DNA of 64,000 nt, from the IMG/VR virus record IMGVR_UViG_2823670853_000002; one strand, given 5' to 3'. The stretch's first letter is position 1. Each line of letters opens with the position of its first letter. The DNA is from a virus. Lineage: Duplodnaviria; Heunggongvirae; Uroviricota; Caudoviricetes. The position numbers and the translations under genes are program-made. Of this stretch, positions 7,534 through 64,000 are shown piece by piece. The notes beneath the pieces are model-generated. The model was not told the origin of the DNA. It saw only the letters and a program-made list of their open reading frames with translations, and did no database searches.

Positions 7534-7539
7534 ATAAAT

Positions 7540-7929: not shown

Positions 7930-8011
7930 TTGCTGAAAAAATCAAAACATTTACTTTTGACATTATAAATTTTCTCTCGGTGTCGTAGGTGATAGCACCA
8001 TAATTGATAAT

Positions 8012-8263: not shown

Positions 8264-8330
8264 ATTGAATACAAACCCAGTGCTGCCGCCATCACAATTC
8301 CTACCGTTGCGAATGCTTCAGGCCAGCTCA

Positions 8331-9903: not shown

Positions 9904-9904
9904 A

Positions 9905-10266: not shown

Positions 10267-10439
10267 CGCTTTGCTCTCCTGCGTCTCTTTGCTGCTCGTC
10301 GTGCCGCTGCAATACCGGTATGGCGGCGCTTTGGTGCCGGGATGATGTTGTCAGCCATCAGGACATACGGCTTTGCAATTAGCGCAGAAGCCCAAAAACG
10401 AGTCGGGTACGGTAACAAGCCGATACATGCCACACGCAT
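10263..10439 (-). CDS. Small basic protein with arginine-rich C-terminus
   Basis: 57 aa ending AARRAAKRRRRAKR; ATG overlaps stop of the Ea22-like gene (TAATG). Confidence 0.3.
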   Translation of the reverse strand: MRVACIGLLPYPTRFWASALIAKPYVLMADNIIPAPKRRHTGIAAARRAAKRRRRAKR

Positions 10440-11191: not shown

Positions 11192-11919
11192 TGGTTGCCT
11201 CCTTTTCGAAGCTCTGCGGCAAAGTCAGTGGCATGTTCACCGAGTAGTTTCCAGTTATCGCGTATATCAGATGCAAATGACTGTTCGGATTTTGAGTTAC
11301 ATTTCTGTGCAAACATCTCCAATCCCTGCGCCCGCACTTCAGCCAGGCATTTGCGAAACTCGGAAACGTACTGTTCGACGCTCATTCCCCAGCTAAGTGG
11401 ACATTCATTGAATGTTTCGCCTTCGTGCTCTTCATCAGGTAGCTCTTTGGTAAAGAACTCACGCTCAATGGCGTGGAGTGTGTCAGCAAAACGACGTAAG
11501 TTACTCAAACCTACCGTAATGGAGAATTCAGGAGCATCACATCCGACGCCCATCTGCTGATAAACGGCGGTTTTGAAGGCCTTAAGCCCCGCATTCTCCG
11601 CCACCAGCGCCGCGAGATTAGTCTCAAGCTCTGCAATTCGACACATAGCATCAATATTTGTGTCCTCCAGGCGCTTAATTTCACCAAGCAGCTCCAGTGC
11701 AACCTTTGGGTTGAACGCGGCAACATAACGAGCGTTATTCTCTGCGTTTTCCTGTCCATCAAAGCCGGGCCATTTGATAACGTCTCCACATCGTTTATCA
11801 CCGGGTGTATGCACCGCATATGTACCAGTACCCGGCGAAATAAATGCGACCCATTCGTCTGGTGTTGCCTTTTCTGCCGCCTCACGCAGTACCTGATAGT
11901 CAATTGTCATTCTCGCCAT
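11188..11919 (-). CDS. Ead/Ea22-like family protein (second tandem copy)
   Basis: 243 aa, MARMTIDYQVLREAAEKATPDEW...; N-terminal module shared with the adjacent paralog, C-terminus divergent. Confidence 0.6.
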   Translation of the reverse strand: MARMTIDYQVLREAAEKATPDEWVAFISPGTGTYAVHTPGDKRCGDVIKWPGFDGQENAENNARYVAAFNPKVALELLGEIKRLEDTNIDAMCRIAELETNLAALVAENAGLKAFKTAVYQQMGVGCDAPEFSITVGLSNLRRFADTLHAIEREFFTKELPDEEHEGETFNECPLSWGMSVEQYVSEFRKCLAEVRAQGLEMFAQKCNSKSEQSFASDIRDNWKLLGEHATDFAAELRKGGNQ

Positions 11920-12533
11920 CCTTCACAGTTGTAATCACGACAGCCTTCAAAATCATATGGGCTGTACTGCCAGGTGATTTTTCCGCAATGCGGACAATTC
12001 CAACGCACCTTCCCGCTTCGCGACTTCTTTCTTCTGTTCTGCTTTTTCAACCAGTCAGGCATGACCAAACCTGCGCCCTGAACCATTGTTCTGCGGTTAA
12101 ATTTATTGATATTGAACGTCCGGCGCTTTGCTGCATCAGCAATGGAAAATGGCAACCAAACTATTCCTGGTTCGTTTTTGTTGGCGACGCTAAAGATGGT
12201 CGCTTTACTGAAGTCATCTGTTGGCAATCCACCGTGTTGAAGCCAGTAAACATCGTTGCCGTTCCAGCTACCTTTTTTGTAGGCCACATACGCAGTGCAA
12301 TCTGACTCAATCAGGCTTTCTGTAGGGATGTACTGGCAATCAACGTGCCACACAGCCATTGCATCCACACTATCGGCACAAACAGGCTGATCGATATCTC
12401 GCCCACAATTCCAGGCTTTTTGGGCTTCTTCCAGCGTGTAAACATGAGCGCGATCGATATCAGAACTGTAACCATTGCCGTTATGGCAATGGAATGAGGC
12501 GTTATTACCCACAGTTTCACGCAAGCACATCAT
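11907..12533 (-). CDS. Hypothetical protein with C-terminal zinc-ribbon-like motif
   Basis: Start placed at internal Met (MMCLRETVG); C-terminus CPHCGK...C..C; longer frame would overlap the upstream gene. Confidence 0.35.
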   Translation of the reverse strand: MMCLRETVGNNASFHCHNGNGYSSDIDRAHVYTLEEAQKAWNCGRDIDQPVCADSVDAMAVWHVDCQYIPTESLIESDCTAYVAYKKGSWNGNDVYWLQHGGLPTDDFSKATIFSVANKNEPGIVWLPFSIADAAKRRTFNINKFNRRTMVQGAGLVMPDWLKKQNRRKKSRSGKVRWNCPHCGKITWQYSPYDFEGCRDYNCEGWRE

Positions 12534-12547
12534 GTAAAAACGGTTAC

Positions 12548-12787
12548 TCACTGGATGCCTCCTTGGTGAAGTTGCGCTGCGATGCACGAAAAAAAAGACT
12601 CCCGAGTATGACTGTTAAGAGCTGGTGCGAACGCCTCGTTAAGAACGGCGGCATCACAGCCGTCATCAATATAGAGCGCAATTTTTTTCTCCAGGCGCGC
12701 TTTGGCTTCCTGCAACTGCATACCCCGGCACGCACGCGGGATATAATCAGCAATTTGAGCGATAGCTTTTTCGTTCTGTTTAAACAT
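12548..12787 (-). CDS. Small hypothetical protein
   Basis: 79-aa ORF, operon-packed. Confidence 0.3.
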   Translation of the reverse strand: MFKQNEKAIAQIADYIPRACRGMQLQEAKARLEKKIALYIDDGCDAAVLNEAFAPALNSHTRESFFSCIAAQLHQGGIQ

Positions 12788-12983
12788 GCTTCACCTCGAT
12801 AGGCTTGATGGTGTCTAACAGCAGTCGGCGGCGCGTATTTTCTGCAAAATGGCGGCGTCCAGTTTCTTTGTGGTAAAACTCGTTTTTGCCAACGACCCAC
12901 ATCCGCTCTGTTTGGTGCAGTTTTTTTACCTGCGGGCCATCTTTGGTGATCACGGTACCGGTATGGGTTTTTACGATTGTCAT
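12780..12983 (-). CDS. Small hypothetical protein
   Basis: 67-aa ORF, overlaps neighbours by a few nt. Confidence 0.3.
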   Translation of the reverse strand: MTIVKTHTGTVITKDGPQVKKLHQTERMWVVGKNEFYHKETGRRHFAENTRRRLLLDTIKPIEVKHV

Positions 12984-13858
12984 GCCACTACCTCTTCGAA
13001 TTTCAACTCCAATTGGTCACCCCAGATTTCACATGATTCGGAACACGAACCAGTATCAAACCGCTTGGCCTGCACCATCGCCTGATACAAATTTCTGTAG
13101 TCGCTGTCGGCATACATTCTGGCAATCCCGTCAAGCGTCAGGTGACCACGGTACATAACGTCTTTACCTGTTCTGCGATGACCATCCCTGACGTGTTTGC
13201 CTGTAACCAGTTCGTTAAAAACCCGCATCAGACCTGGTTCGTCTTTACATGCAAGCCCCAGCTTTTGCGTTGACTTTTTGATGCAAAAAACACAGTTCCC
13301 GAGGTGCTCCGGGATTTGCAAATCAAAAGGTTGTTTTCGCCACCACCGGATAACATCCGACTTATCAAAATCTGACAGCTCGGCAAGATACCGGACGCCC
13401 GGTTTCGGTTTCAGCCTACGGGGTTCGTCCGCACGAATACCGAGCCATGTGATGTAATTCCCTCGCCCAAAATGGTCATCGCAATATTTCGTGAAAGGGG
13501 TGAGTTTTAGCCTGTCAGTACAGAACGCGCCGCCGATGTATGGCGTACCGTACTTTTTAACCATGTCCATAAACGGTTTAAGCACCGGCGTTCGCGTCTG
13601 AATATCCTTTGGTCCCCATTCCGTATAACCATTTGGCTGCCCAAGTTCTGGATTTATATCGACCTGCAACACCGTTAGCGGTACGTTCCAGAACTTCACA
13701 ACCTCACGAATAAAGCGATACGTCAGAGGATGTTCACAGCCGGTATCCATAAAAATGAAATGGACGCTAGCGCCAGCTTTTCGCTGTGCTTCCATCAGAT
13801 GAACGAGATAAGCCGATGTTCGTCCACCTGAAAAGCTGACGACTTGATGCATACTCAC
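12980..13858 (-). CDS. Phosphoadenosine phosphosulfate (PAPS) reductase-like protein
   Basis: 292 aa with the PP-loop motif SFSGGRTS near the N-terminus, as in PAPS reductase/DndC-like ATP pyrophosphatases. Confidence 0.7.
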   Translation of the reverse strand: MSMHQVVSFSGGRTSAYLVHLMEAQRKAGASVHFIFMDTGCEHPLTYRFIREVVKFWNVPLTVLQVDINPELGQPNGYTEWGPKDIQTRTPVLKPFMDMVKKYGTPYIGGAFCTDRLKLTPFTKYCDDHFGRGNYITWLGIRADEPRRLKPKPGVRYLAELSDFDKSDVIRWWRKQPFDLQIPEHLGNCVFCIKKSTQKLGLACKDEPGLMRVFNELVTGKHVRDGHRRTGKDVMYRGHLTLDGIARMYADSDYRNLYQAMVQAKRFDTGSCSESCEIWGDQLELKFEEVVA

Positions 13859-13861
13859 GGT

Positions 13862-14590
13862 TTATTCCTGAATGCGCTTAAACTCAATTACCCATACCCA
13901 GGGATTAGCGTTCCAGCTTTCTTCACCATAGATGGATTCCCACAGACGCTGGAACGCAACCTTGGCCATTGCGAAATCCCCCTTGGGAGTAAGGAATGTT
14001 TCCGGGTAATCAGGAAGCAAACTTCCAGCAGGCGGAACGCCCTCAGCCCCTGCATCGCATTCGCTGATATCGTTCAACCGCTCAACGCGCACGTTGGTAA
14101 TTTCCAACAGAATGCGTGATGCCCATCGCGGCATGTGAATTGATGGACGCCACCCACCATCAAACTTTTCATTCACAGTGTGAGGTTTCCAGTCGGCATC
14201 ATCGGGTATCGACCATAAGCCGTAATCACCAGGCTTTTGCTCACAACTGGCCCGATAAATCCTTGCTGCGTTCTTCTCATCACCACGACAAAGGTTGTCG
14301 TTCCAGTCCACACTACAACCATCCTCATTGCCTAATATCGCCCATGTTTCACGAACCCAAATTCGATCGCCGACGATACCAAAGGGGCAATTGAAGACAC
14401 TGCTTACACCATCAGCCCCGTACCACTGAAAACCTGCACCAATTTTTCTAACCATCACTGGTGCTTCTGGACCAACTTCCGCAGGCTGATTTTTCATTAT
14501 CCGCCGCGTCTGCGTTTTCCTTCCTTCGATGATGGCCCGGACCATCTCATCGTTGAAAATCATGCCGCGCTCTTTCACTTCGCCTTTCAT
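13862..14590 (-). CDS. Conserved phage protein of unknown function
   Basis: 242-aa ORF; probable start at Met10 (MIFNDEMVRAIIEGRKTQTRR), an N-terminus seen in prophage proteins adjacent to PAPS-reductase-like genes. Confidence 0.4.
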   Translation of the reverse strand: MKGEVKERGMIFNDEMVRAIIEGRKTQTRRIMKNQPAEVGPEAPVMVRKIGAGFQWYGADGVSSVFNCPFGIVGDRIWVRETWAILGNEDGCSVDWNDNLCRGDEKNAARIYRASCEQKPGDYGLWSIPDDADWKPHTVNEKFDGGWRPSIHMPRWASRILLEITNVRVERLNDISECDAGAEGVPPAGSLLPDYPETFLTPKGDFAMAKVAFQRLWESIYGEESWNANPWVWVIEFKRIQE

Positions 14591-34266: not shown

Positions 34267-35037
34267 ATGCTGGAAAAAGACTACCAGTTATCCGCATATA
34301 AAAAATTGGCCGCAGCCGGTGGGATGAAAACACCTGGTGCCATAACATCAGCACGAAACAGTGCTAACACGGCAAAACAGCTTGCAGAAGAATTGACGGG
34401 ATTAATTCTGGATACAATTGTCTATCCCGACACTATTACCAGCTATGTTTCAACGATCAGAACAACCACAACCGGCTTAACGAACATTGGAGAACTGGCA
34501 ACTAAGCACGCGGACCTGTTGGCTGATTATGCAGATCTGTCAATGCTGCTTCAACTCGATATTGGTTGGGATGTTTACTGCCGTGCTAATGAGCGAGAAG
34601 TTTCAGAACTGCCGATCTCTATTGCCATTGGTGATGTGAATATTACTAAATCGCTTGAGGACGCTGTTAATGCGCTTAATACATCAAGTTTAGTCGCTGC
34701 TATGGGGGAGATTAACCAGACCCTTAACACTGGCTCAGGAAGCTCGTCAGGCTCTGGTTCAGGCGGCGGAACTGCCACTCCCCCACCAGCACTAACAGAA
34801 GAACAAATTGAATCTCTGAAAGTAGCAACTGAACAGTTTGGGGTTGTTTTCAACCAGACAACAGCGCCCACAACTGCGTTACAACAGCAGTATGAACGAG
34901 CGAATGAAAGCGCCAACGTAGCCATAACTGCTTATAACCATGCTATCGGTACCGCGCTTGCGGAAGCATCAGCAAAGAACCACGGCAGCCTGGCGGCTGC
35001 AAATCGTGGTGTGGCAGAATATGAGCTTTCAGAGTAA
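34267..35037 (+). CDS. Hypothetical protein with Gly/Ser-rich linker
   Basis: ~256 aa from MLEKDYQL; central SGSSSGSGSGGGTATPPP linker; function unknown. Confidence 0.4.
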   Translation: MLEKDYQLSAYKKLAAAGGMKTPGAITSARNSANTAKQLAEELTGLILDTIVYPDTITSYVSTIRTTTTGLTNIGELATKHADLLADYADLSMLLQLDIGWDVYCRANEREVSELPISIAIGDVNITKSLEDAVNALNTSSLVAAMGEINQTLNTGSGSSSGSGSGGGTATPPPALTEEQIESLKVATEQFGVVFNQTTAPTTALQQQYERANESANVAITAYNHAIGTALAEASAKNHGSLAAANRGVAEYELSE

Positions 35038-35056
35038 CCATCCAGAATGAGTTCCC

Positions 35057-35329
35057 ATGTCACACAACCTGGAGCACCAGAAAGTCCACACCAGAATGGT
35101 GAAAGAGGTTCTGAAAGCCGTCGCCAGGGCCAATAATCACCCTTATCAGTCTGTATTTACAGACTTTATCGCCGGTCATCCCTCCTGTACGGTCTGTTTC
35201 TGGGAAACCTTCCACAAAATGTACCCGGATTCACCGTACGAATACGTCACGTTCTGCCATACCTGCCGTCGTTTTGATTTATACGAAACTGAAGCGGAGA
35301 TGAAGGCGGATGACCCGAAGTGGTGGTGA
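35057..35329 (+). CDS. Small cysteine-rich ORF upstream of the transposase
   Basis: 90 aa with CTVC...CHTC motifs; overlaps transposase start by 20 nt in another frame; may be an IS91 orf121-like accessory ORF. Confidence 0.35.
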   Translation: MSHNLEHQKVHTRMVKEVLKAVARANNHPYQSVFTDFIAGHPSCTVCFWETFHKMYPDSPYEYVTFCHTCRRFDLYETEAEMKADDPKWW

Positions 35330-36518
35330 TTTTCAGCCCCGACCGCTGAAACGCCTGTTCACAGCCAACCAGTGCTGGACATCCTTCCTGGATGCGGGCG
35401 GCCTGCGCGATATCGAGGTTGAGGCTGTCACAAAAATGCTGGCCTGCGGCACGCGGATACTGGGTGTGAAGGAATACAACTGCGATAAACCTGAGTGCCC
35501 CCACGTCAGATACGTCACTAACTCATGTGGCAGCCGTGCCTGCCCGTCCTGCGGAAAAAAGGCCACAGACCTGTGGATAGCGACACAGCTGAATCGTCTT
35601 CCTGACTGCGACTGGGTGCACCTGGTCTTCACCCTGCCGGACACGCTGTGGCCGGTGTTCGAAAGCAACCGCTGGCTGCTGAATGACGTGTGCCGTCTGG
35701 CGGTGGAGAATCTGCTGTATGCAGCCCGGAAACGGGGTCTGGAACCCGGTATCTTCTGCGCCATCCATACGTATGGCCGTCGTCTCAACTGGCATCCGCA
35801 TGTGCATGTGTCAGTGACCTGCGGAGGTCTGAATAAACACGGACACTGGAAAAAGCTGAGCTTCCTGAAAGACGCGATGCGTTCGCGGTGGATGTGGAAT
35901 ATGCGGCAGCTGCTTCTGAAAGCGTGGTCAGAAGGTCTGGCGATGCCGGAATCGTTGTCACATATCACGACGGAATCACAGTGGAGAAGCCTGGTGCTGA
36001 AAGCCGGCGGAAAATACTGGCATGTGTACATGTCGAAGAAGACAGCCGGAGGGCGGAATACGGCACGCTACCTGGGTCGTTATCTGAAGAAGCCACCAAT
36101 AGCGGCTTCCCGGCTGGCGCATTACAACGGAGGAGCGAGTCTGAGCTTCCGTTACCTGGACCACAAAACGGGAGAAACGGCGACGGAAACGCTGACACAG
36201 CGGGAGCTGGTCGCGAGGCTGAAACAGCACATCCCGGAGAAGTTTTTTAAGATGGTGAGATACTTCGGGTTCCTTGCCAACCGGGTGTGTGGAGAGAAGC
36301 TGCCGCAGGTGTACCGTGCTCTGGGGATGGATAAGCCGGAACCAGTGGCGAAAGTGTGCTATGCACAAATGGTGAAACAGTTCCTGAGTCGTGACCCGTT
36401 CGAATGCGTGCTGTGTGGCGGCCGGATGGTATACCGCCGGGCCATTGCGGGGCTGAATGTATCAGGGCTGAAGAAAAACGCGCGGGATATCAGTCTGCTG
36501 AGGTATATGCCGGCCTGA
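35310..36518 (+). CDS. tnpA: IS91-family transposase (HUH, Y2 type)
   Basis: 402 aa; N-terminal zinc-binding CGSRACPSCGKK, HUH motif NWHPHVHVSV, tyrosine motif ARYLGRYLKKPP. Confidence 0.75.
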   Translation: MTRSGGDFQPRPLKRLFTANQCWTSFLDAGGLRDIEVEAVTKMLACGTRILGVKEYNCDKPECPHVRYVTNSCGSRACPSCGKKATDLWIATQLNRLPDCDWVHLVFTLPDTLWPVFESNRWLLNDVCRLAVENLLYAARKRGLEPGIFCAIHTYGRRLNWHPHVHVSVTCGGLNKHGHWKKLSFLKDAMRSRWMWNMRQLLLKAWSEGLAMPESLSHITTESQWRSLVLKAGGKYWHVYMSKKTAGGRNTARYLGRYLKKPPIAASRLAHYNGGASLSFRYLDHKTGETATETLTQRELVARLKQHIPEKFFKMVRYFGFLANRVCGEKLPQVYRALGMDKPEPVAKVCYAQMVKQFLSRDPFECVLCGGRMVYRRAIAGLNVSGLKKNARDISLLRYMPA

Positions 36519-36780
36519 CACAGGCTAAGTGTGCCCGGGAATCGGTGCAGGTATAAAAAACAGCCTGTTACGGTATAAAAATCGACCATGCAGAGAGAGA
36601 AACCACCGGAGTGGAGGGAAAAGCAGAAAGGCTCACGTGGCATAAGGCGTGGACAGCGGTATCGTCTGGTTTTTCAATTTCCTATACGTCAAGGCCAGCA
36701 CAGCCAGCGCAGTCGCCGCTTTGGTTCCTGATTCTGTTCTTGATGAATTAAACAAAGCGGCACAGTAACAAAGGACTTCA

Positions 36781-37407: not shown

Positions 37408-37800
37408 ATGTCTGATAAAGTAACAGTAAAGCAAACTATCAACAAAGCGACTTCAATCTACAAAATTGAGCACATCACTGTTGGCAAGCCAGGATCTGAA
37501 CAATACCGTCATGCTTTCGAGCTTGCCGATCAGCTTGGTTTAAAACACCCGGATTGCATCGAGCATGTATTTCCGACCTATGCTGATGAGCAATGTACTC
37601 ATGTTCTTACCGAAGAGGATTTTTTCAGCACTGAAGAACGAGAAGGCGTTGATCGCTGCATTGGTGTGATTTGCTCTTCAGTGAGTTATGAGTTATTCCC
37701 TAATGTCCATGAAAATGGTGGTATTGGATACCAATTCCTGTACGAAGGCGATGAGCTTAAATGTTATGAACATGGCCTTCTCATCGAAAGCGTAGAATAA
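37408..37800 (+). CDS. Hypothetical protein
   Basis: 130-aa ORF followed by a hairpin (37814-37836) and the origin region. Confidence 0.4.
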   Translation: MSDKVTVKQTINKATSIYKIEHITVGKPGSEQYRHAFELADQLGLKHPDCIEHVFPTYADEQCTHVLTEEDFFSTEEREGVDRCIGVICSSVSYELFPNVHENGGIGYQFLYEGDELKCYEHGLLIESVE

Positions 37801-37842
37801 TACCCTTCCTTCTAACCGGCTATGTTGGCCGGTTTATTCAAC

Positions 37843-38058
37843 TTATCCACAGCATAGATCCAATAAACAGATCCTAAAGAGAACCTAGTAAGATCCAAAG
37901 AAGATCCCGGATCGCTGTAAGCCGCGTCATTTCTGGCCTGAAATGGGATCAACATTGACTATACGCGATTTTATGTTGACTGTGCACGATTTATTGTTGA
38001 CTGCACGCGATTTATTGTTGACTATACGCGACAGAAACATTGACTGTACGCGATTTTA
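37843..38058. other. oriR: Plasmid replication origin oriR: DnaA box, GATC cluster and five direct iterons
   Basis: DnaA box TTATCCACA (37843-37851); six GATC sites between 37857 and 37950; five ~21-bp direct repeats TTGACTrTrCrCGATTT (37956-38058). Confidence 0.6.
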
Positions 38059-38098
38059 GAGTCTGAATATTCACAGCTGTTGATAACAGCCATCCAAA

Positions 38099-39019
38099 TT
38101 GACGTCAGGCCGCGCCACACATGGAGAAACCACGATGCCGGAAGAAAGTAAAGGCTTCCTTAGCGTTGAAGAAGTTGCAGGAAATACAGGAGAAATCCAC
38201 AGCCTGAAGCCCAATAACAACAGCACTATACAACCCATCGCTTTGTTGCGTTTAGGTGTGTTTGTGCCAACCTTAAAATCTACCAATGTGGCGCTACGTC
38301 GCGGATCGTCAGTTACAACAAACACAACGAACGCAACTGAAGAACTATCAAGCCTCAAAATTGTTGAGCAGGAAGGCTATGAGGGAATTGAAATTCATGG
38401 TCCACGCCTGGATATGGATACTGATTTTAAGGTGTGGGTGGGCATAACCTCCGCGTTGTTTGACTATGCACCTGATGATGACGGTATAATCACCCTGCCA
38501 TTCTCCGAGTTTGCCGATCGATGCGGCTATCCACGTAAGCGCCTTTCAAAGGCGTTCCGTAAAAGTATTGATGACTCTCTGACACGCATTCAGCAGACAG
38601 TTGTCAAATTCCGCTTCCCGGCGGCAAAAGGTCATCTCAATAACATTAACGTCAACTTGTTGGCATATAGCAGCCTGAATACCGAGCTTGATGTTATCGA
38701 GATCCAGCCGCAGAAACAGCTATCTGAACTTTACTATGTTGACTATAAGCGAATCCTGAAGCTGAAGATGCTGGATAAACTAGGGCGCAAAGAGACGGCC
38801 AAGGTACTGTATACATTCTTTGAGGCTCTACCCGCCAACCCGGCACCTGTCAGCATTGAGCGCCTTAGGGCGAGGCTTAATCTCAAATCATCCGTTAGCG
38901 TGCAAAATAGCGTTATCAGAAAAGCCATGAAAGATTTAGAAGCTATTGAATATCTTAAATTTTCAGAGATAAAAAACGGCAGGAAAATCGGCTTCCAGAT
39001 CCATAAGCGCAATCCATAA
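38099..39019 (+). CDS. repA: Plasmid replication initiator RepA (P1 RepA family)
   Basis: 306 aa (294 if start at Met13, which has a GGAG RBS); conserved blocks IQPIALLRLGVFVP and GPRLDMDTDFKVW shared with P1 RepA; flanked by iterons. Confidence 0.8.
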   Translation: MTSGRATHGETTMPEESKGFLSVEEVAGNTGEIHSLKPNNNSTIQPIALLRLGVFVPTLKSTNVALRRGSSVTTNTTNATEELSSLKIVEQEGYEGIEIHGPRLDMDTDFKVWVGITSALFDYAPDDDGIITLPFSEFADRCGYPRKRLSKAFRKSIDDSLTRIQQTVVKFRFPAAKGHLNNINVNLLAYSSLNTELDVIEIQPQKQLSELYYVDYKRILKLKMLDKLGRKETAKVLYTFFEALPANPAPVSIERLRARLNLKSSVSVQNSVIRKAMKDLEAIEYLKFSEIKNGRKIGFQIHKRNP

Positions 39020-39020
39020 T

Positions 39021-39279
39021 ATTGACTATATGCGATAGCGAGAAGTTGACTATAGGCGACATTCGTTGACGCTGGTGGATTTTTGCTGGCGTCAATATTC
39101 TGCAAGTCTCTATTGAGATGGCTTTTAGGGCCATTTCATCGCGTATAGTCAACGTTTCTCCCGACAATATCTTACATAGTCGATCTTTGGTGGAGTTAAA
39201 TCGACTACAGTCAACTTTTGACTGTAGTCACATCGCGCATAGTCAACTATTCACATTAACCTTCGCGCATAGTCAACAT
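39021..39279. repeat. incA-like iteron cluster downstream of repA (copy-control locus)
   Basis: About eight copies of the TTGACTATrCGCG-type iteron in both orientations (e.g. 39021, 39046, 39140, 39200, 39235, 39265). Confidence 0.55.
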
Positions 39280-39311
39280 TTGCGCGGTTCTCATCAAGCA
39301 GTGGTATTGAT

Positions 39312-40121
39312 ATGCAAGAAGAAAAACAATACTACCTCTACGTTCTGGTGCCGGAGAACGGAGATACTTTTAAAATCGGCATTTCATGTGGTCCATTGGC
39401 ACGGTTTAAAGGGCTACAAGTGAGTCCCGATTTTGCGCTTTCACGGGTCTATCGTGGTACGCGTTTGGCAATGGTTAATCTTGAGCGAGCTTTACACGCA
39501 ACCTTTTTCCCCTGGAATGCGCCGTGGGAGAAAAGCGCCGGTGGCGGGCATACTGAATGGTTTACACGAGAGTGTCTTGATAAGGTTTTGGCTCATATCG
39601 AATATCTAAATGATATGTGGGGAGGGATTCTCGAGCGCATTAAGTCGAATGATTTACTTCAGCGTCCAGTAGATGCTGCTTGCTCTTTCGAAAAAGAGCT
39701 GGATGTTACTTCTATCGTGACTTTCAAAGATGACGCAGGAATGAGGGACGTGGCTTATGTCTCCATATCTGGCTATGAACCGGACGCGATCCGCGCTCAA
39801 TGTGAATTGCTGAAAGCAATGTTTATGCTTCGGACTAAATATCCCTGGGAGACAGGGCGGGTGTGCTTCCCTATGGAAGAGTTAACCGCCACCATTGATT
39901 CCCAGCTTTACCACGATAATCCAGAGAAGTTTTTTAGCCTTTTAGCCGGTAATGGGCTTAACTGTGTGTCCGGGCTGGGGCGAAGTAGAATCCAACATGC
40001 CTCGCTCTTCGGTCCCTTCTTTTACGATCGACACGGGTACTTTGAGGCTGAACTTCCGGCGCTTACGCGTGCTATAGATACTATCGATTTCGAACGATTA
40101 TTCGCTGCTCTTAGCAAATAA
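39312..40121 (+). CDS. T5orf172 (GIY-YIG-like) domain protein
   Basis: 269 aa; N-terminus YYLYVLVPENGDTFKIGIS...RFKGL...GGGHTEWF resembles the T5orf172/MUG113 signature; C-terminal ~170 aa unassigned; own terminator downstream. Confidence 0.5.
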   Translation: MQEEKQYYLYVLVPENGDTFKIGISCGPLARFKGLQVSPDFALSRVYRGTRLAMVNLERALHATFFPWNAPWEKSAGGGHTEWFTRECLDKVLAHIEYLNDMWGGILERIKSNDLLQRPVDAACSFEKELDVTSIVTFKDDAGMRDVAYVSISGYEPDAIRAQCELLKAMFMLRTKYPWETGRVCFPMEELTATIDSQLYHDNPEKFFSLLAGNGLNCVSGLGRSRIQHASLFGPFFYDRHGYFEAELPALTRAIDTIDFERLFAALSK

Positions 40122-40128
40122 CACTGAT

Positions 40129-40150
40129 GCCCCTGAACGGGGCTTTTTTG
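40129..40150 (+). terminator. Rho-independent terminator after the T5orf172 gene
   Basis: GCCCC-TGAAC-GGGGC hairpin followed by TTTTTT. Confidence 0.6.
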
Positions 40151-40289
40151 TGCCCTCCTTGTAACTCTCAATCGTGCAAAATGAACCAAACATGCAGAGA
40201 ATGCTATGTACAAGCATCTGTGCATACATTATTATTTTATGCAGCATTTTTAAGTAAATTCAAAAATACAGCATAAAGGATGACTTTCG

Positions 40290-41486
40290 ATGAGTGATTC
40301 CAGCCAGCTTCACAAGGTTGCTCAAAGAGCAAATAGAATGCTCAATGTTCTGACTGAACAAGTACAGTTGCAAAAGGATGAGCTACACGCGAACGAGTTT
40401 TACCAGGTCTATGCGAAAGCGGCACTGGCAAAATTGCCTCTACTGACTCGAGCGAACGTTGACTATGCCGTAAGTGAAATGGAAGAAAAGGGCTATGTTT
40501 TCGATAAACGCCCTGCTGGCTCTTCAATGAAATATGCGATGTCAATTCAGAACATCATTGACATATATGAACATCGCGGAGTGCCAAAATACCGGGATCG
40601 CTACAGCGAAGCGTATGTGATTTTCATCTCCAATCTTAAAGGCGGTGTGTCAAAAACTGTATCGACGGTTTCTCTGGCGCATGCAATGCGTGCCCACCCT
40701 CATCTTCTGATGGAAGATTTAAGGATTCTGGTTATTGACCTTGATCCGCAATCTTCAGCAACGATGTTTTTAAGCCATAAACACTCTATTGGTATCGTAA
40801 ACGCAACATCTGCACAGGCTATGTTGCAGAATGTAAGCCGTGAAGAGCTGTTAGAGGAGTTTATTGTTCCTTCTGTTGTACCTGGGGTTGACGTTATGCC
40901 TGCGTCGATTGACGATGCCTTTATTGCATCCGATTGGAGAGAGCTGTGCAATGAGCATCTACCGGGTCAGAACATCCATGCTGTCCTGAAAGAAAATGTG
41001 ATTGATAAGCTGAAGAGCGATTATGACTTTATCCTCGTTGATAGTGGTCCTCACCTTGACGCCTTCCTGAAAAATGCTTTGGCCTCGGCCAATATACTGT
41101 TTACACCTCTGCCGCCAGCAACTGTCGATTTCCACTCATCGCTTAAATACGTTGCCCGCCTTCCTGAGTTGGTGAAACTCATTTCGGATGAAGGCTGCGA
41201 GTGCCAGCTTGCGACTAACATTGGTTTTATGTCCAAGTTGAGTAACAAGGCAGATCATAAGTATTGCCATAGCTTGGCTAAAGAAGTGTTCGGTGGGGAT
41301 ATGCTCGATGTCGTCCTCCCTCGCCTTGACGGTTTTGAACGCTGCGGCGAGTCTTTTGACACTGTTATTTCAGCTAACCCGGCAACGTATGTTGGTAGTG
41401 CTGATGCATTGAAGAACGCGCGAATTGCTGCGGAAGATTTTGCTAAAGCAGTTTTTGACCGTATTGAATTTATCAGATCTAACTGA
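40290..41486 (+). CDS. parA: Partition ATPase ParA (type Ia)
   Basis: 398 aa; N-terminal HTH extension plus deviant Walker A (NLKGGVSKT); same length as P1 ParA; preceded by a palindromic operator-like region. Confidence 0.9.
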   Translation: MSDSSQLHKVAQRANRMLNVLTEQVQLQKDELHANEFYQVYAKAALAKLPLLTRANVDYAVSEMEEKGYVFDKRPAGSSMKYAMSIQNIIDIYEHRGVPKYRDRYSEAYVIFISNLKGGVSKTVSTVSLAHAMRAHPHLLMEDLRILVIDLDPQSSATMFLSHKHSIGIVNATSAQAMLQNVSREELLEEFIVPSVVPGVDVMPASIDDAFIASDWRELCNEHLPGQNIHAVLKENVIDKLKSDYDFILVDSGPHLDAFLKNALASANILFTPLPPATVDFHSSLKYVARLPELVKLISDEGCECQLATNIGFMSKLSNKADHKYCHSLAKEVFGGDMLDVVLPRLDGFERCGESFDTVISANPATYVGSADALKNARIAAEDFAKAVFDRIEFIRSN

Positions 41487-41502
41487 GGAGTAAGAAACCC
41501 CC

Positions 41503-42504
41503 ATGTCAAAGAAAAACAGACCAACAATTGGGCGAACCCTTAATCCTTCAATATTAAGCGGATTTGATAGTTCTTCAGCCTCTGGCGATCGAGTCGAGCA
41601 GGTATTCAAGTTATCAACTGGTCGCCAGGCCACATTTATTGAAGAGGTAATACCTCCGAACCAGGTAGAAAGCGATACCTTTGTTGATCAGCATAACAAC
41701 GGGCGTGACCAGGCATCTCTTACGCCAAAATCATTAAAAAGTATCCGAAGCACTATTAAGCATCAGCAATTTTACCCTGCAATAGGTGTTAGACGGGCTA
41801 CAGGGAAAATTGAAATTTTGGATGGTTCCCGGCGTCGAGCTTCTGCCATCTTAGAGAACGTAGGGTTGCGGGTTTTAGTCACGGACCAGGAGATCAGCGT
41901 TCAGGAAGCGCAAAATTTAGCGAAAGACGTTCAGACAGCATTGCAGCACAGCATTCGAGAAATAGGTCTGCGTTTGATGCGAATGAAAAATGATGGGATG
42001 AGTCAGAAGGATATTGCAGCCAAAGAAGGGCTGTCTCAGGCGAAGGTCACGCGTGCTCTCCAGGCAGCGAGTGCTCCGGAAGAATTAGTCGCCCTTTTCC
42101 CTGTGCAGTCGGAATTAACCTTTTCGGACTACAAAACACTTTGTGCTGTTGGCGACGAAATGGGGAACAAGAATTTAGAGTTTGATCAGCTTATTCAAAA
42201 CATATCCCCGGAAATAAACGACATCTTATCCATTGAAGAAATGGCCGAAGATGAAGTTAAAAATAAAATCCTGCGCTTGATAACAAAGGAAGCCTCACTA
42301 CTCACGGATAAAGGTTCTAAAGATAAGTCCGTAGTTACTGAATTATGGAAATTTGAGGACAAGGATCGCTTTGCAAGGAAGCGCGTGAAAGGCCGTGCAT
42401 TTTCTTATGAGTTTAATCGACTTTCAAAAGAGCTACAGGAAGAACTCGACAGGATGATTGGGCATATCCTTAGAAAGAGCCTCGATAAAAAGCCGAAGCC
42501 TTAA
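41503..42504 (+). CDS. parB: Partition protein ParB
   Basis: 333 aa; ParB/Spo0J-like centre; directly followed by a parS with P1-type A and B boxes. Confidence 0.9.
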   Translation: MSKKNRPTIGRTLNPSILSGFDSSSASGDRVEQVFKLSTGRQATFIEEVIPPNQVESDTFVDQHNNGRDQASLTPKSLKSIRSTIKHQQFYPAIGVRRATGKIEILDGSRRRASAILENVGLRVLVTDQEISVQEAQNLAKDVQTALQHSIREIGLRLMRMKNDGMSQKDIAAKEGLSQAKVTRALQAASAPEELVALFPVQSELTFSDYKTLCAVGDEMGNKNLEFDQLIQNISPEINDILSIEEMAEDEVKNKILRLITKEASLLTDKGSKDKSVVTELWKFEDKDRFARKRVKGRAFSYEFNRLSKELQEELDRMIGHILRKSLDKKPKP

Positions 42505-42508
42505 ACTT

Positions 42509-42591
42509 TCGCCATTCAAATTTCACTATTAAACTACTGTTTTTAAAGTAAATCCCTCTAAAATTTCAAGGTGAAATCGCCACGATTTCAC
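42509..42591. other. parS: Partition site parS (heptamer A boxes and hexamer B boxes around an AT-rich IHF-like core)
   Basis: B box TCGCCA (42509, 42577), A box ATTTCAC (42520, 42585) and its complement GTGAAAT (42571), arranged as in P1 parS. Confidence 0.75.
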
Positions 42592-42708
42592 CTTGGATTT
42601 TACCTTCCTCCCCTACTCCCGAAAAAAATAAAAAAATTGCTTGTCACGAGAAAGTCAACAAGTGACTTTCAATAAAATCTCTTCCGAAAAGGGATTCACA
42701 CAAGTGCC

Positions 42709-48067: not shown

Positions 48068-48093
48068 TAAAGCTCCTTCGGGAGCTTTTTTAT
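48068..48093. terminator. Rho-independent terminator (bidirectional) between tail block and hok locus
   Basis: AGCTCC-TTCG-GGAGCT hairpin followed by TTTTTTA and preceded by TTTTAAA. Confidence 0.55.
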
Positions 48094-48165
48094 TTGGAGA
48101 GGAAAGGGTGCATTGAGGATACCTGACACACGAAGAGTGACGGGGATCTCTCCCCGCCAGGTCTC

Positions 48166-48321
48166 TTACCTTTCAGATTCGTAGGCTGTGAAGACAGTGA
48201 CCTCCGTCTGGCCGGTTCGGATTCGTACCTCGCAGAGGTCTTTCCTCGTTACCAGTGCCGTCACAATGACGGTTAAACAGATGACGATCAGAGCGATTAA
48301 CATCGCTTTTTGCTGCTTCAT
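48166..48321 (-). CDS. hok: Hok/Gef-family type I toxin (51 aa), unlisted short ORF
   Basis: MKQQKAMLIALIVICLTVIVTALVTRKDLCEVRIRTGQTEVTVFTAYESER matches the Hok pattern (…LTRKSLCEIRYRDG.REVAAFMAYES…). Confidence 0.8.
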   Translation of the reverse strand: MKQQKAMLIALIVICLTVIVTALVTRKDLCEVRIRTGQTEVTVFTAYESER

Positions 48322-48379
48322 AGCCTGCTTCTCCTTGACCTTTTGGTCGGTAAGAGGCTAATCTACGTATGCTAAGCAT
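48173..48379 (-). CDS. mok: Mok-like overlapping reading frame
   Basis: 68-aa ORF starting upstream of hok and overlapping it completely in another frame, as mok does in hok/sok loci. Confidence 0.5.
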   Translation of the reverse strand: MLSIRRLASYRPKGQGEAGYEAAKSDVNRSDRHLFNRHCDGTGNEERPLRGTNPNRPDGGHCLHSLRI

Positions 48380-48430
48380 AGATATGGCCTCAGATTAATG
48401 TTAAGCGTCTTGCAGGACGCGTAATGTTAT
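48371..48430 (+). ncRNA. sok: Predicted Sok-like antisense RNA (position inferred, not resolved)
   Basis: Plus-strand promoter-like TTGACC (48335) N18 TAATCT (48359) would drive a short transcript antisense to the mok start/leader; hairpin GCGTC-TTGCAG-GACGC at 48404-48419. Confidence 0.3.
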
Positions 48431-48502
48431 CTGGGGCTTTCTTCTATCTGCTTTTCGGGTAATGCCTGAAGCAGATAGCCTCAAGCACCCGCAACGATTG
48501 TA

Positions 48503-48748
48503 TCAATGTCTGGCTTTTTTTCTATAGAAATCACCAGGAAGGGTGAATATCCACATCAGAAGAAATGTTGCAGCAAACATGATCCCTAATGGCCAGACCG
48601 CGCCAAAGAAAATCCATACTAAGATCTCCTCTGCTCGTTCTTTGCGGTCGATATCGACAAGCATTTTTCGGCTGATCATGTATACACAGAAGCCAATACA
48701 AACATATCCTGCAAAAGCGATCGCTAACTGTAAAAAATCAGATTGCAT
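48503..48748 (-). CDS. Small membrane protein
   Basis: ~81 aa from internal Met (MQSDFLQLAIAFAGYVCIGFCVY...), three hydrophobic segments; longer frame would overlap repL. Confidence 0.35.
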   Translation of the reverse strand: MQSDFLQLAIAFAGYVCIGFCVYMISRKMLVDIDRKERAEEILVWIFFGAVWPLGIMFAATFLLMWIFTLPGDFYRKKARH

Positions 48749-48798
48749 CTCCGACCTCAAACTGAAAACGCCAGGTGACTCCAGATTAGAGCAATCTA

Positions 48799-62528: not shown

Positions 62529-64000
62529 ATGAATGACGTTACAGTTGTTACATCGGTTACTTACCCATCACCCGAGTCGTTGGCTCTGGTGGCTGATGTG
62601 CAATACCACGAACCATATCTGTCAGCCGCTCTAAACCGAAAATTCAGGGGAATTGTTGACCCAGGATTTTATGCTGGTTTCTTGCCTAAGCCTGGCGGTG
62701 GAATGAACCTGTTAATCACCTCAGTGGATGGAGATAAAACCGCTGGCGCGGCGTCAGTGGATATTGGTGAATTCTACCAGGTAACTATTCAGCATCGTAA
62801 GGATATCTCTCTTGCACTTAACGCAGGCAAGAAATATGCAATTGTGCTGAAGGGAAGATACCTTCTTGGAGAAGATACCTATCAGGTGAATACCGCGTCA
62901 CATATTCATGCAGCTGAATTTGTTGCCAGAACCTATACCGATTCATATCAGTTAGGTGATGGGGAACTGCTGGTTTGTACGGTGAATATCCCTGCTGGCG
63001 TATCTACCATTACTCAAGAGATGATTGATACATCCGAGCGTATCAACCGCACGATCGGCATTGATATTTCAGACTCTGTAACCAGTACCAGAAGTGATGT
63101 TGCTGCGAGTTCGCTGGCAGTTAAAAAAGCCTACGATCTGGCGAAAAGCAAGTATACGGCGCAGGATGCAAGCACAACGCAAAAGGGATTAGTTCAGCTC
63201 AGTAGTGCCACTAACAGTACGTCTGAAGTGCTGGCCGCCACACCGAAAGCTGTCAAGGCTGCATATGACCTGGCTAACGGGAAGTATACAGCCCAGGATG
63301 CAACCACGACACAAAAAGGGATAGTTCAGCTCAGTAGCGACACCAACAGCACTTCTGAAACATTAGCTGCAACTCCAAAAGCGGTTAAAGCTGCATACGA
63401 TCTAGCAGCCGGAAAGGCACCATCCAGTCATACACATCCCTGGAATCAGATCACTGGTGTGCCAACAGCTTCATTGACAGCGAAAGGCATCACTCAGCTC
63501 AGTAGTGCCACTAACAGTACGTCTGAAGTGCTGGCCGCCACACCGAAAGCTGTCAAGGCTGCATATGACCTGGCTAACGGGAAGTATACAGCCCAGGATG
63601 CAACCACGGCTCAAAAAGGGATAGTCCAACTCAGCAGTGCTACCAATAGCACGTCCGAAGTGCTGGCCGCCACACCGAAAGCTGTCAAGGCTGCATATGA
63701 TTTGGCTAATGGAAAGCAAGCGGCAGACGCTACGCTCACTGCTCTAGCGGCACTAGCTACAGCAGCAGATAAACTCCCTTATTTCACAGGTGTTGATCGT
63801 GCCGCGTTAACTGCATTGACAAGTGTTGGACGCGCCATTCTTGGTAAGACCAGTATTCAGAGCGTTCTTGATTACCTTGGTTTGGGAGAAGGCTCTGCAT
63901 TACCTGTTGGTGTCCCTGTTCCGTGGCCTTCCGCCACTCCGCCAACAGGCTGGCTGAAATGCAACGGTGCGGTTTTTTCTGCTGAAGAATACCCGGAACT
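62529..64000 (+). CDS. Tail fiber protein (partial, runs off window end), unlisted in ORF track
   Basis: Frame open from ATG at 62529 to window end; N-terminus MNDVTVVTSVTYPSPESLALVADVQYHEP typical of side tail fibers; repeated ~50-aa units (ITQLSSATNSTSEVLAATPKAVKAAYDLANGKYTAQDATT). Confidence 0.7.
   Translation, partial: MNDVTVVTSVTYPSPESLALVADVQYHEPYLSAALNRKFRGIVDPGFYAGFLPKPGGGMNLLITSVDGDKTAGAASVDIGEFYQVTIQHRKDISLALNAGKKYAIVLKGRYLLGEDTYQVNTASHIHAAEFVARTYTDSYQLGDGELLVCTVNIPAGVSTITQEMIDTSERINRTIGIDISDSVTSTRSDVAASSLAVKKAYDLAKSKYTAQDASTTQKGLVQLSSATNSTSEVLAATPKAVKAAYDLANGKYTAQDATTTQKGIVQLSSDTNSTSETLAATPKAVKAAYDLAAGKAPSSHTHPWNQITGVPTASLTAKGITQLSSATNSTSEVLAATPKAVKAAYDLANGKYTAQDATTAQKGIVQLSSATNSTSEVLAATPKAVKAAYDLANGKQAADATLTALAALATAADKLPYFTGVDRAALTALTSVGRAILGKTSIQSVLDYLGLGEGSALPVGVPVPWPSATPPTGWLKCNGAVFSAEEYPE
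63194..63608 (+). repeat. Perfect 115-bp direct repeat inside the tail fiber gene (63194-63308 and 63494-63608), plus degenerate copies
   Basis: Identical sequence read at both positions; additional diverged copies around 63120-63190, 63310-63420 and 63610-63720. Confidence 0.8.

What the first reader, a model, noticed from the sequence alone, without database searches (positions are those of the whole stretch)
37843..39279. P1-type RepA flanked by iterons that differ from the P1 iteron sequence
RepA shares conserved blocks with P1 RepA and the origin has the P1 layout (DnaA box, GATC cluster, five direct repeats, downstream incA-like cluster). The repeat unit here is TTGACTrTrCrCGATTT, which does not resemble the P1 19-mer as I remember it (GATGTGTGCTGGAGGGAAA). 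That points to a P1-like backbone with a different incompatibility specificity.
Basis: partly seen in the sequence, partly recalled or inferred. Interest (0 to 1): 0.45.

Follow-up and report, generated by a model that had tools for sequence, protein, structure and literature searches.

The report
Known p0111 replicon in P1-like plasmid
This is the plasmid-replication unit of a P1-like phage-plasmid, of the already catalogued 'p0111' type: it is laid out like phage P1's unit but uses a different initiator protein and different binding repeats, and it occurs almost unchanged in hundreds of sequenced E. coli and Salmonella plasmids, so it is real but ordinary.

Summary
Window 37843-39279 holds a DnaA box, six GATC sites, five direct 21/22-bp-spaced repeats (core TTGACTRYRNRCGAT), a 294-aa RepA gene and a downstream cluster of the same repeat in both orientations. 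RepA is 42% identical to P1 RepA, and the repeats show no resemblance to the P1 19-mer.

It is not new. The 1.5-kb region is 98-99.9% identical to about 400 plasmids and to phages RCS47, SJ46 and JL22. RepA is 292/294 identical to that of pO111_2, which I take to be the source of the PlasmidFinder type 'p0111'. Published surveys already divide P1-like phage-plasmids into IncY and p0111.

New detail found here:
- The swapped module runs from about 37640-37840 to 40187 and includes a tightly linked T5orf172/GIY-YIG gene.
- Iteron number, orientation and spacing copy P1 exactly.
- Iteron sequence changes in step with RepA across relatives.
- ParA, ParB and parS are P1-type (ParB 100% identical), so partition incompatibility with P1 should persist.
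- Among 5426 complete E. coli genomes only 2 carry both replicons, against about 28 expected by chance.

Most likely mechanism: P1/RepFIB-style iteron initiation with copy control by handcuffing.

The parts
37843..37851 (+). Left DnaA box, TTATCCACA
   Evidence: Exact consensus. It is invariant in five p0111-type elements and in the relative L008, whose RepA is 85% identical. It aligns with the annotated DnaA site of P1 oriR.
37857..37950 (.). Cluster of six GATC (Dam) sites, mostly in (A/T)AGATCC heptamers; presumed origin-opening and SeqA-sequestration region
   Evidence: GATC at 37857, 37870, 37892, 37903, 37910 and 37947. The region is about 70% identical to the five-GATC region of P1 oriR. 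It is fully conserved in L008, where the upstream flank is unrelated. Similar stretches occur next to many IncFIB replicons.
37955..38054 (+). Five direct origin iterons (incC equivalent): 15-nt cores at 37955-69, 37976-90, 37997-38011, 38018-32 and 38040-54
   Evidence: The spacing of 21, 21, 21 and 22 bp is identical to P1 iterons 14-10. The outer parts, TTGACT and GCGA(T), are invariant across relatives while the central 4-5 nt vary.
38067..38086 (.). Right-hand DnaA-like boxes: ATATTCACA (+, 38067-75) and TTATCAACA (-, 38078-86)
   Evidence: Each has one mismatch to TTATNCACA. The second aligns with a perfect TTATCCACA on the - strand in L008. P1 oriR also has DnaA-type boxes on this side (sequence; functional role from my knowledge of P1).
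38135..39019 (+). repA, 294-aa iteron-binding initiator (p0111 type)
   Evidence: GGAGAA lies 6 nt upstream of the ATG.

Family and fold:
- Pfam Rep3_C scores 27.3, above the 21.1 cutoff. Rep3_N scores 22.0, just under the 22.4 cutoff.
- The AlphaFold2 model has pLDDT 71.9. The top 38 Foldseek PDB hits are all iteron initiators: RctB, RepE, pi and RepA-WH1.

Identities:
- 100% to RCS47 RepA.
- 292/294 to pO111_2.
- 42% to P1.
38739..38753 (+). Iteron-like site inside repA (TTGACTATAAGCGAA), function unknown
   Evidence: PWM score 23.2, against 24-31 for the flanking iterons. It is unchanged in the 76%-identical gene of L008, although half of the same-amino-acid codons carry synonymous changes there.
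39022..39080 (+). Downstream iterons in repA orientation: 39022-36, 39046-60 and the conserved variant 39066-80 (TTGACGCTGGTGGAT)
   Evidence: The variant third copy is conserved in all five p0111 elements and in L008. This corresponds to the three same-orientation iterons 9-7 of P1 incA.
39138..39276 (-). Downstream iterons in the opposite orientation (incA-like control set): 39138-52, degenerate 39169-83, 39200-14, 39232-46 and 39262-76
   Evidence: The start-to-start spacing is 31, 31, 32 and 30 bp, as in P1 incA iterons 1-6 (30-31 bp). The degenerate position is a good iteron in L008.
39312..40121 (+). 269-aa T5orf172 / GIY-YIG-family gene that travels with the replicon; role unknown
   Evidence: Pfam T5orf172, E = 5e-6, and PHROG 2876. 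It is absent from P1. It is found in 401 plasmid records, against 400 for the replicon. It is followed by the hairpin GCCCCTGAACGGGGC plus a T-run at 40129-40149.
37640..40187 (.). Extent of the segment that replaces P1 oriR-repA-incA
   Evidence: On the left, identity to P1 falls in steps: 98-100% up to about 37640, then 92-94%, 88%, and about 70% at 37840-37931, with no alignment beyond 37937. The right junction is sharp at 40188, about 19 bp before the Ppar -35.
40290..42600 (+). P1-type parA-parB-parS (context; not part of the swapped module)
   Evidence: ParA is 397/398 and ParB 333/333 identical to P1. All parS ParB boxes are identical.

Best explanation
This is the low-copy plasmid-maintenance replicon of a P1-like phage-plasmid. 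It is of the known p0111 type, a sister lineage of the P1 (IncY) and RepFIB replicons, and it sits where P1 carries oriR-repA-incA.

Inferred mechanism, by homology with P1 and RepFIB:
1. Monomers of the 294-aa two-winged-helix RepA bind the five phased iterons at 37955-38054.
2. Together with host DnaA at the flanking boxes, they open the adjacent Dam-methylated GATC-rich region, and the host replisome is loaded.
3. RepA bound at the origin iterons also represses its own promoter.
4. The eight downstream iteron positions (three in one orientation, five in the other) titrate RepA and pair with origin iterons ('handcuffing'), holding copy number down and creating replication incompatibility.

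The iteron sequence and RepA have diverged together from P1's. P1 RepA and incA should therefore not act on this origin, nor this RepA on P1's. That is a distinct replication-control specificity.

Shown here: sequence anatomy, homology, predicted fold, RepA-iteron co-variation and population distribution.
Inferred, not shown: DNA binding, origin firing, autorepression, handcuffing and actual compatibility.
For: Repeats are far beyond chance and confined to the repA flanks (12 matches against 1.1 expected).

The layout copies P1:
- Five origin iterons spaced 21, 21, 21 and 22 bp in both.
- Three downstream iterons in one orientation, then an inverted set with about 31-bp phasing, in both.
- DnaA boxes on both sides, and 5-6 GATC sites.

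RepA belongs to the initiator family. It is homologous to P1 RepA, matches Pfam Rep3, and its model matches RctB, RepE, pi and RepA-WH1 structures.

Iteron sequence tracks RepA divergence:
- 85% RepA: TTGACTATGTGCGAT
- 53% RepA: GTTGATGCTAGWCGATTT
- 48.6% RepA: TGTCTACTGTATGCGAT
- 45.7% RepA (SSU5): AACCACTGTAGAGAGTAG
- 42% RepA (P1): GATGTGTGCTGGAGGGAAA

Iteron ends, DnaA box and GATC sites are conserved while spacers drift.

Identity with the known type:
- 98-99.9% identical to 400 plasmids and 12 phage records.
- RepA 292/294 identical, and the 2.39-kb module 98.2% identical, to pO111_2.
- JL22, typed p0111 in PMC9603915, has RepA 99.7% identical.

Most carriers are non-mobilizable plasmids, and the listed ones are mostly about 90-100 kb. 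No other plasmid initiator was noticed in this window. [quoted passage not shown]

For RepFIB, experiments show that the downstream iteron block alone exerts incompatibility (PMC11983097).
Against: - Nothing here shows binding, firing or copy control directly.
- No convincing sigma-70 repA promoter was found on the + strand by the consensus scan, so autorepression through iterons is argued only by analogy.
- Rep3_N is marginally below Pfam's cutoff.
- The model's N-terminal 70 residues are low-confidence, and whole-chain TM-scores to solved initiators are low (0.2-0.4) because domain orientation differs.
- The two replicon types almost never share a cell, so functional 'compatibility' is not visible in nature. 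Shared immunity and partition systems can explain this.
Confidence: 0.9

Rival explanations
1. It is merely a divergent allele of the P1 (IncY) replicon with the same specificity. P1 RepA and this RepA would recognise each other's iterons, and the elements would be replication-incompatible.
For: Identical architecture and spacing. Homologous RepA. The origin's DnaA/GATC part is about 70% identical. The two types are strongly mutually exclusive in genomes.
Against: The iterons share no alignable core with P1's 19-mer. RepA is only 42% identical and is no closer to P1 than to RepFIB or SSU5 initiators. Even a relative with 85% identical RepA has systematically altered iterons. Typing schemes separate the two (PMC9603915). 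The exclusion is explained by P1-type par and immunity.
Confidence: 0.04
2. The replicon module spreads among P1-like genomes because the linked T5orf172/GIY-YIG protein acts as a homing-type nuclease. It would cut IncY-type P1 DNA near the incA/Ppar junction, and repair would copy in the nuclease gene together with the adjacent p0111 replicon.
For: - The gene is linked almost 1:1 to the replicon (401 against 400 plasmid records).
- It sits at the sharp right junction, about 70 bp from P1-type sequence. The left junction is a gradient like a co-conversion tract.
- It has a GIY-YIG-clan domain and a weak match to a phage 'endonuclease' PHROG.
- Seventeen IncY/p0111 switches were inferred on one Salmonella phage-plasmid tree (PMC11165635).
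Against: - No nuclease activity is known for this protein or shown for T5orf172 domains in general.
- No NCBIfam or PADLOC match.
- The gene is split in pO111_2, yet the replicon persists there.
- The 85% relative L008 carries the replicon without this gene arrangement.
- Ordinary homologous recombination in the flanking 98% identical P1 DNA suffices to explain the swaps.
Confidence: 0.05
3. The repeats are not initiator sites. They are chance or regulatory repeats (for example, stacked -35-like TTGACT promoters), and repA is a relic.
For: Each repeat begins with TTGACT, a near-consensus -35 hexamer. No binding data exist.
Against: - 12 copies against 1.1 expected, all flanking repA.
- Exact P1 phasing.
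- Both orientations are used downstream.
- The repeats co-vary with RepA in four other lineages.
- repA is intact and under strong conservation in more than 400 plasmids.
- The promoter scan finds no + strand promoters there.
Confidence: 0.01

Closest known systems
p0111 replicon type (PlasmidFinder), as in E. coli O111:H- 11128 plasmid pO111_2 and phages RCS47, SJ46 and JL22
   Same: - RepA is 100% identical to RCS47, 99.7% to SJ46 and JL22, and 292/294 to pO111_2.
- The whole origin-repA-iteron-T5orf172 module is 97.8-99.9% identical.
- It occupies the same position between upfA and parA in a P1-like genome.
   Different: - This element pairs the replicon with P1-type ParA/ParB/parS. RCS47 and SJ46 are reported to carry P7-type par (PMC5241659).
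- There are a few point differences in iteron centres.
- An IS91-family element lies 1.1 kb upstream, in upfB.
P1 plasmid replicon oriR-repA-incA (IncY)
   Same: - Same genomic slot.
- Homologous RepA (42%).
- DnaA boxes flank the origin, with a Dam-site cluster.
- Five origin iterons spaced 21, 21, 21 and 22 bp.
- Downstream control iterons: three in one orientation, then an inverted set at about 31-bp spacing.
   Different: - The iteron sequence is unrelated (TTGACTRYRNRCGAT against GATGTGTGCTGGAGGGAAA).
- One rather than two tandem left DnaA boxes.
- Eight rather than nine downstream positions.
- An extra T5orf172 gene lies between the control iterons and parA.
- An iteron-like site inside repA, which P1 lacks.
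RepFIB replicons (F, P307, pO157; IncFIB(K)-like Klebsiella plasmids) and the SSU5 phage-plasmid replicon
   Same: - Same RepA family (45-49% identity).
- rep is flanked by upstream origin iterons and downstream control iterons.
- A related DnaA-box/GATC stretch.
- The IncFIB(K)-like iteron TCTACTGTATGCGAT matches 11 of 15 positions of the iteron here.
   Different: A separate, tight clade. 392 plasmids carry a RepA at least 99% identical. The next nearest relative in the protein search is 53% identical, and in the plasmid collection the rest are at most 48.6%. The iteron centre is different, and this clade is associated with P1-like phage backbones.
Dual winged-helix iteron initiators with solved structures (RepE of F, pi of R6K, RepA of pPS10, RctB domains 2-3)
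   Same: Predicted fold and Pfam Rep3 domains. Binding to direct repeats is implied.
   Different: Sequence identity is only 10-14%. Sequence search alone finds no solved relative. The disordered N-terminal 70 residues are specific to the P1/RepFIB group.

Membership tests
p0111 replicon type | Near-identity of the rep gene to the type's reference (pO111_2 of E. coli O111:H- 11128) | tested here: met
   RepA is 292/294 identical, and 2391 bp of the module are 98.2% identical, to NC_013370 pO111_2. That NC_013370 equals the AP010962 cited as reference in PMC11165635 is from my own knowledge. JL22, typed p0111 in PMC9603915, is 99.7% identical in RepA.
p0111 replicon type | Carried by P1-like phage-plasmids in the oriR-repA-incA slot | tested here: met
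   The window is colinear with P1, and the module lies between upfA and parA.
P1 / IncY replicon | RepA essentially identical to P1 or P7 RepA | tested here: not met
   42% identity.
P1 / IncY replicon | 19-bp iterons GATGTGTGCTGGAGGGAAA in incC and incA | tested here: not met
   No copy in the region. The repeats here do not align with them.
P1 / IncY replicon | Architecture: DnaA boxes, Dam-site cluster, five phased origin iterons, rep gene, bidirectional downstream control iterons | tested here: met
P1 / IncY replicon | Replication incompatibility with P1 (incA/incC) | not testable with these tools
   Needs a plasmid displacement experiment. Genome co-occurrence (2 observed against about 28 expected) is confounded by shared par and immunity.
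Rep_3 / RepE-like iteron initiators | WH1 and WH2 domains (Pfam Rep3_N, Rep3_C) | tested here: inconclusive
   Rep3_C scores 27.3, above the 21.1 cutoff. Rep3_N scores 22.0, just below the 22.4 cutoff.
Rep_3 / RepE-like iteron initiators | Two winged-helix fold | tested here: met
   The AlphaFold2 model (pLDDT 72; 80-94 over much of residues 90-290) gives 38 top Foldseek hits, all RctB, RepE, pi or RepA-WH1. WH1 alone scores TM 0.61-0.66.
Rep_3 / RepE-like iteron initiators | Cognate direct repeats next to the gene that co-vary with the protein | tested here: met
Rep_3 / RepE-like iteron initiators | Sequence-specific binding of Rep monomers to iterons and origin opening | not testable with these tools
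   Requires EMSA or footprinting and in vitro replication.
GIY-YIG homing endonucleases (for the linked ORF 39312-40121) | GIY-YIG catalytic domain plus demonstrated site-specific cleavage and biased inheritance | tested here: inconclusive
   Only a T5orf172 domain match (E = 5e-6) and a weak PHROG 'endonuclease' match. No NCBIfam or PADLOC hit. Activity is untestable here.

The most novel reading that the evidence does not exclude
The p0111 module is more than a passive alternative replicon in two possible ways.

(a) Its tightly linked T5orf172/GIY-YIG gene, placed exactly at the sharp junction with P1 DNA, could drive homing-like replacement of the IncY replicon in P1-like phages.

(b) The iteron copy inside repA could be an unrecognised control element. 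Iteron copies inside repA also occur, at other positions, in the Proteus relative (L010) and the SSU5 replicon, but not in P1.

Neither possibility is excluded by my data, and neither is supported beyond linkage and conservation.
Probability: 0.07. Interest if true: 0.45.

Novelty: already known. Interest (0 to 1): 0.15.

Why it matters
The practical value is modest. The finding identifies this window's element as a P1-like phage-plasmid with the p0111 replicon, a class common in E. coli and Salmonella. That replicon was found in 415 of 5426 complete E. coli genomes here, and these elements are known carriers of ESBL genes.

The useful by-products are descriptive:
- An explicit map of the p0111 iterons, their phasing and the module borders. 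I did not find such a map in the searchable literature.
- The point that this element keeps P1-type partition functions, so the replicon type alone does not predict compatibility with P1.
- The strong under-representation of IncY and p0111 co-carriage.

None of this changes how iteron replicons are thought to work.

Tried and rejected
- **Promoter search.** The consensus scan found no + strand sigma-70 promoter between the iterons and repA. Manual inspection gave only weak candidates: TTGACT of iteron 5 with poor -10 hexamers. I do not assign PrepA.
- **Solved structures by sequence.** The PDB sequence search found nothing at E below 0.39. Structure prediction plus Foldseek was needed.
- **NCBIfam.** No model hits this RepA, P1 RepA or the T5orf172 protein. 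PADLOC gave nothing for the T5orf172 protein.
- **Literature.** I searched for a description of p0111 iterons or an IncY/p0111 incompatibility experiment. I found only typing and phylogeny statements and 'theoretically compatible' (PMC11165635). The original RCS47 paper is not in the held library.
- **Accession AP010962.** It is not in the collections. NC_013366 turned out to be the ehx plasmid pO111_3. NC_013370, pO111_2, was the right record.
- **The swap as iterons plus repA only.** I first took the swap to cover only these parts, because blastn extended P1 homology to 37937. Sliding identity and the L008 alignment showed that the DnaA/GATC part belongs to the incoming replicon.
- **A palindromic half-iteron operator (TTGACGTCA at 38100-38108).** It is not conserved in L008, so I dropped it.
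- **My own error.** I read only the first record of a multi-record file. This was corrected.
Full report
**1. What is in the sequence**

Window 37800-39320 reads as a complete iteron replicon. After the stop codon of a upfA homologue (37408-37800) comes a perfect DnaA box, TTATCCACA, at 37843-37851. Six GATC sites follow between 37857 and 37950, mostly in AGATCC heptamers.

Next are five direct repeats starting at 37955, 37976, 37997, 38018 and 38040. Two DnaA-like boxes follow at 38067-75 (+) and 38078-86 (-). A Shine-Dalgarno GGAGAA precedes a 294-aa ORF at 38135-39019.

Directly after the stop codon the same repeat recurs. It appears twice strongly and once as a variant on the + strand (39022, 39046, 39066). 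It then appears five times on the - strand (ending at 39152, 39183 [degenerate], 39214, 39246 and 39276).

The repeat core is TTGACTRYRNRCGAT. With up to one mismatch, the pattern occurs 12 times in the 64-kb window, all within 37955-39276. Shuffles give 1.1 expected, and none of 100 shuffles reaches 12.

**2. Comparison with P1 itself**

I fetched the annotated P1 genome NC_005856.

- RepA here is 42% identical to P1 RepA over 272 residues.
It does not align with the repeats here.
- The geometry is nonetheless the same. P1's five incC iterons are spaced 21, 21, 21 and 22 bp, and so are these.
- P1's incA has three iterons in the repA orientation followed by six inverted ones at 30-31-bp intervals. 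This region has three followed by five inverted ones at 30-32 bp.

**3. Extent of the replaced segment**

The window as a whole is a P1-like genome, colinear with P1 positions 92089 to 37095 at 95-99% identity.

On the left side, identity to P1 falls in steps:

| Window interval | Identity to P1 |
|---|---|
| up to about 37640 | 98-100% |
| 37641-37790 | 92-94% |
| 37791-37839 | 88% |
| 37840-37931 (DnaA box and GATC cluster) | about 70% |
| after 37937 | none |

On the right side, P1 homology resumes abruptly at 40188 at 98.9% identity, about 19 bp upstream of the par promoter -35.

The incoming segment therefore contains the whole origin, repA, the control iterons and an extra 269-aa gene (39312-40121) with a T5orf172/GIY-YIG-clan domain. 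A terminator-like hairpin follows at 40129-40149.

The DnaA/GATC part belongs to the incoming replicon, not to the P1 backbone. A relative in a different context (L008, RepA 85% identical) confirms this. Its upstream flank is unrelated, but its homology to the window starts at the DnaA box.

**4. Identity of the replicon**

The 1.5-kb region is 97.8-99.9% identical to 400 plasmids (371 Escherichia, 23 Salmonella). It matches 12 phage records to the same degree, including RCS47, SJ46, JL22 and phi456. RepA is 100% identical to that of RCS47 and 99.7% to SJ46 and JL22.

RepA is 292/294 identical to that of pO111_2 of E. coli O111:H- 11128, and the 2.39-kb module is 98.2% identical. By my knowledge, that plasmid gave the PlasmidFinder type 'p0111' its name.

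The published record is consistent:
- P1-like phage-plasmids carry either IncY or p0111 replicons in roughly equal numbers (PMC9603915; PMC11165635; PMC10879196).
- In JL22, 'repA' (p0111) and an unknown gene replace repA (IncY)' (PMC9603915).
- The SJ46 paper already reported 42% identity to P1 RepA (PMC5241659).

This is a known replicon type. I found no paper in the held library that describes its iterons or tests its incompatibility. One calls the two types 'theoretically' compatible (PMC11165635).

**5. Place in the wider family**

This RepA forms a tight clade. In the plasmid collection, 392 plasmids carry a protein at least 99% identical, and only seven records fall between 60% and 99%. 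The remainder are at most 48.6% identical:

| Relative | RepA identity |
|---|---|
| IncFIB(K)-like | 48.6% |
| F/pO157 RepFIB | 45-47% |
| SSU5 | 45.7% |
| P1 | 42.3% |

. 'P1-type' is thus true only in the broad sense. P1 is no closer than the RepFIB initiators.

The DnaA-box/GATC stretch is recognisably shared with many IncFIB replicons.

A structure prediction from a 40-sequence alignment gave mean pLDDT 72, with the residue 90-290 core mostly 80-94. Its top 38 Foldseek PDB matches are all iteron initiators: RctB domains 2-3, RepE, pi and RepA WH1. Pfam gives Rep3_C above threshold and Rep3_N just below it.

**6. Evidence that the repeats are the RepA sites**

Iteron sequence changes in step with RepA:

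| RepA identity to the window | Iteron |
|---|---|
| 85% (L008) | TTGACTATGTGCGAT (one systematic change) |
| 53% (Proteus, L010) | GTTGATGCTAGWCGATTT (same ends, different centre) |
| 48.6% | TGTCTACTGTATGCGAT |
| 45.7% (SSU5) | AACCACTGTAGAGAGTAG |
| 42% (P1) | unrelated |

Among five p0111 elements and L008, the iteron ends, the DnaA box and all GATC sites are invariant. Iteron centres, spacers and the leader upstream of repA vary. The variant third downstream copy (39066) is conserved in all of them. The degenerate copy at 39169-39183 is a good iteron in L008.

**7. Mechanism**

By homology with P1 (my knowledge of the work of Abeles, Austin, Chattoraj and Wickner) and RepFIB (PMC11983097), I infer the following:

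- RepA monomers on the five origin iterons, together with DnaA, open the methylated GATC region.
- RepA at these iterons represses repA.
- The downstream iterons limit copy number by titration and handcuffing, and are the main incompatibility determinant.

All of this is inference. No promoter could be placed with confidence.

**8. Limits of the 'different incompatibility' reading**

ParB is 333/333 and ParA 397/398 identical to P1, and the parS ParB boxes are identical. Partition-mediated (incB) incompatibility with P1 should therefore remain, as should C1 immunity. RCS47 and SJ46, by contrast, are reported to carry P7-type par (PMC5241659). Replicon and partition modules therefore reassort.

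I used inclusion-exclusion on three searches of 5426 complete E. coli genomes:

| Query | Genomes | Records |
|---|---|---|
| p0111-specific segment | 415 | 415 |
| IncY-specific segment | 361 | 362 |
| Either segment | 774 | 777 |

No single record carries both segments, and only 2 genomes do. Independence predicts 27.6. The genomes are not independent samples. Even so, the depletion is large and in the direction of mutual exclusion of P1-like elements regardless of replicon type.

**9. Verdict**

The feature is already known (the p0111 replicon of P1-like phage-plasmids), so interest is low.

Two residual curiosities remain: an iteron-like site inside repA, and the tight linkage of a GIY-YIG-family gene at the module's sharp junction.

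Noticed in passing
window 38739-38753 (inside repA, codons 202-206): An iteron-like site, GTTGACTATAAGCGAA, lies within the repA coding sequence. It is unchanged in the 76%-identical repA of L008, where 51% of same-amino-acid codons carry synonymous changes and both flanking codons do (about p = 0.03). The Proteus relative (L010, position 3439, - strand) and SSU5 (L006, position 1505) also have an iteron inside repA at other positions. P1 repA has none.
   Followed up: partly
window 39312-40121: A 269-aa T5orf172/GIY-YIG-clan gene is absent from P1 and is linked almost 1:1 to the p0111 replicon (401 against 400 plasmid records). It sits about 70 bp from the sharp junction with P1-type DNA. It is split into two CDS in pO111_2. 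Its function is unknown, and a homing role is only speculation.
   Followed up: partly
window 34980-36690: A 1.7-kb IS91-family element (402-aa transposase at 35310-36518, NCBIfam NF033538) is inserted in the upfB homologue. It is absent from P1 and from the closest plasmid, NZ_CP069570.
   Followed up: partly
E. coli genome collection: p0111 and IncY replicons occur in 415 and 361 of 5426 complete E. coli genomes. They occur together in only 2, against about 28 expected, and never on one record. The two co-carrying genomes were not identified.
   Followed up: partly
window 40290-42600: ParA, ParB and parS are P1-type (ParB 100% identical to P1). Published p0111 phages RCS47 and SJ46 are said to have P7-type par. 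The replicon and partition modules therefore assort independently.
   Followed up: partly
annotations of related records (L013, L017; RefSeq phage records; PHROG 775): PLSDB/MOB-suite types these plasmids as 'IncHI1B'. RefSeq phage records and PHROG 775 call RepA a 'replication helicase'. Both labels are misleading for a winged-helix iteron initiator of the p0111 type.
   Followed up: no
window 6909-13895, 28385-28879, 48092-48784, 63276-64000: Further segments have no match in P1. The 7-kb one lies at the pmgT-humD variable region and encodes DUF551, Ead/Ea22-like and PAPS-reductase-domain proteins. The 48-kb one replaces rlfA, rlfB and pmgF. These are the known variable regions of P1-like elements.
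   Followed up: partly
L010 3831-4500 (Proteus mirabilis relative, RepA 53%): Downstream of its repA, this relative has an 11-copy tandem array of a 43-bp unit, each unit carrying an iteron-like TCGTTGAAGCAAGACGATTT. It also has a duplicated origin segment about 350 bp apart. This is a much larger control array than in P1 or p0111.
   Followed up: no
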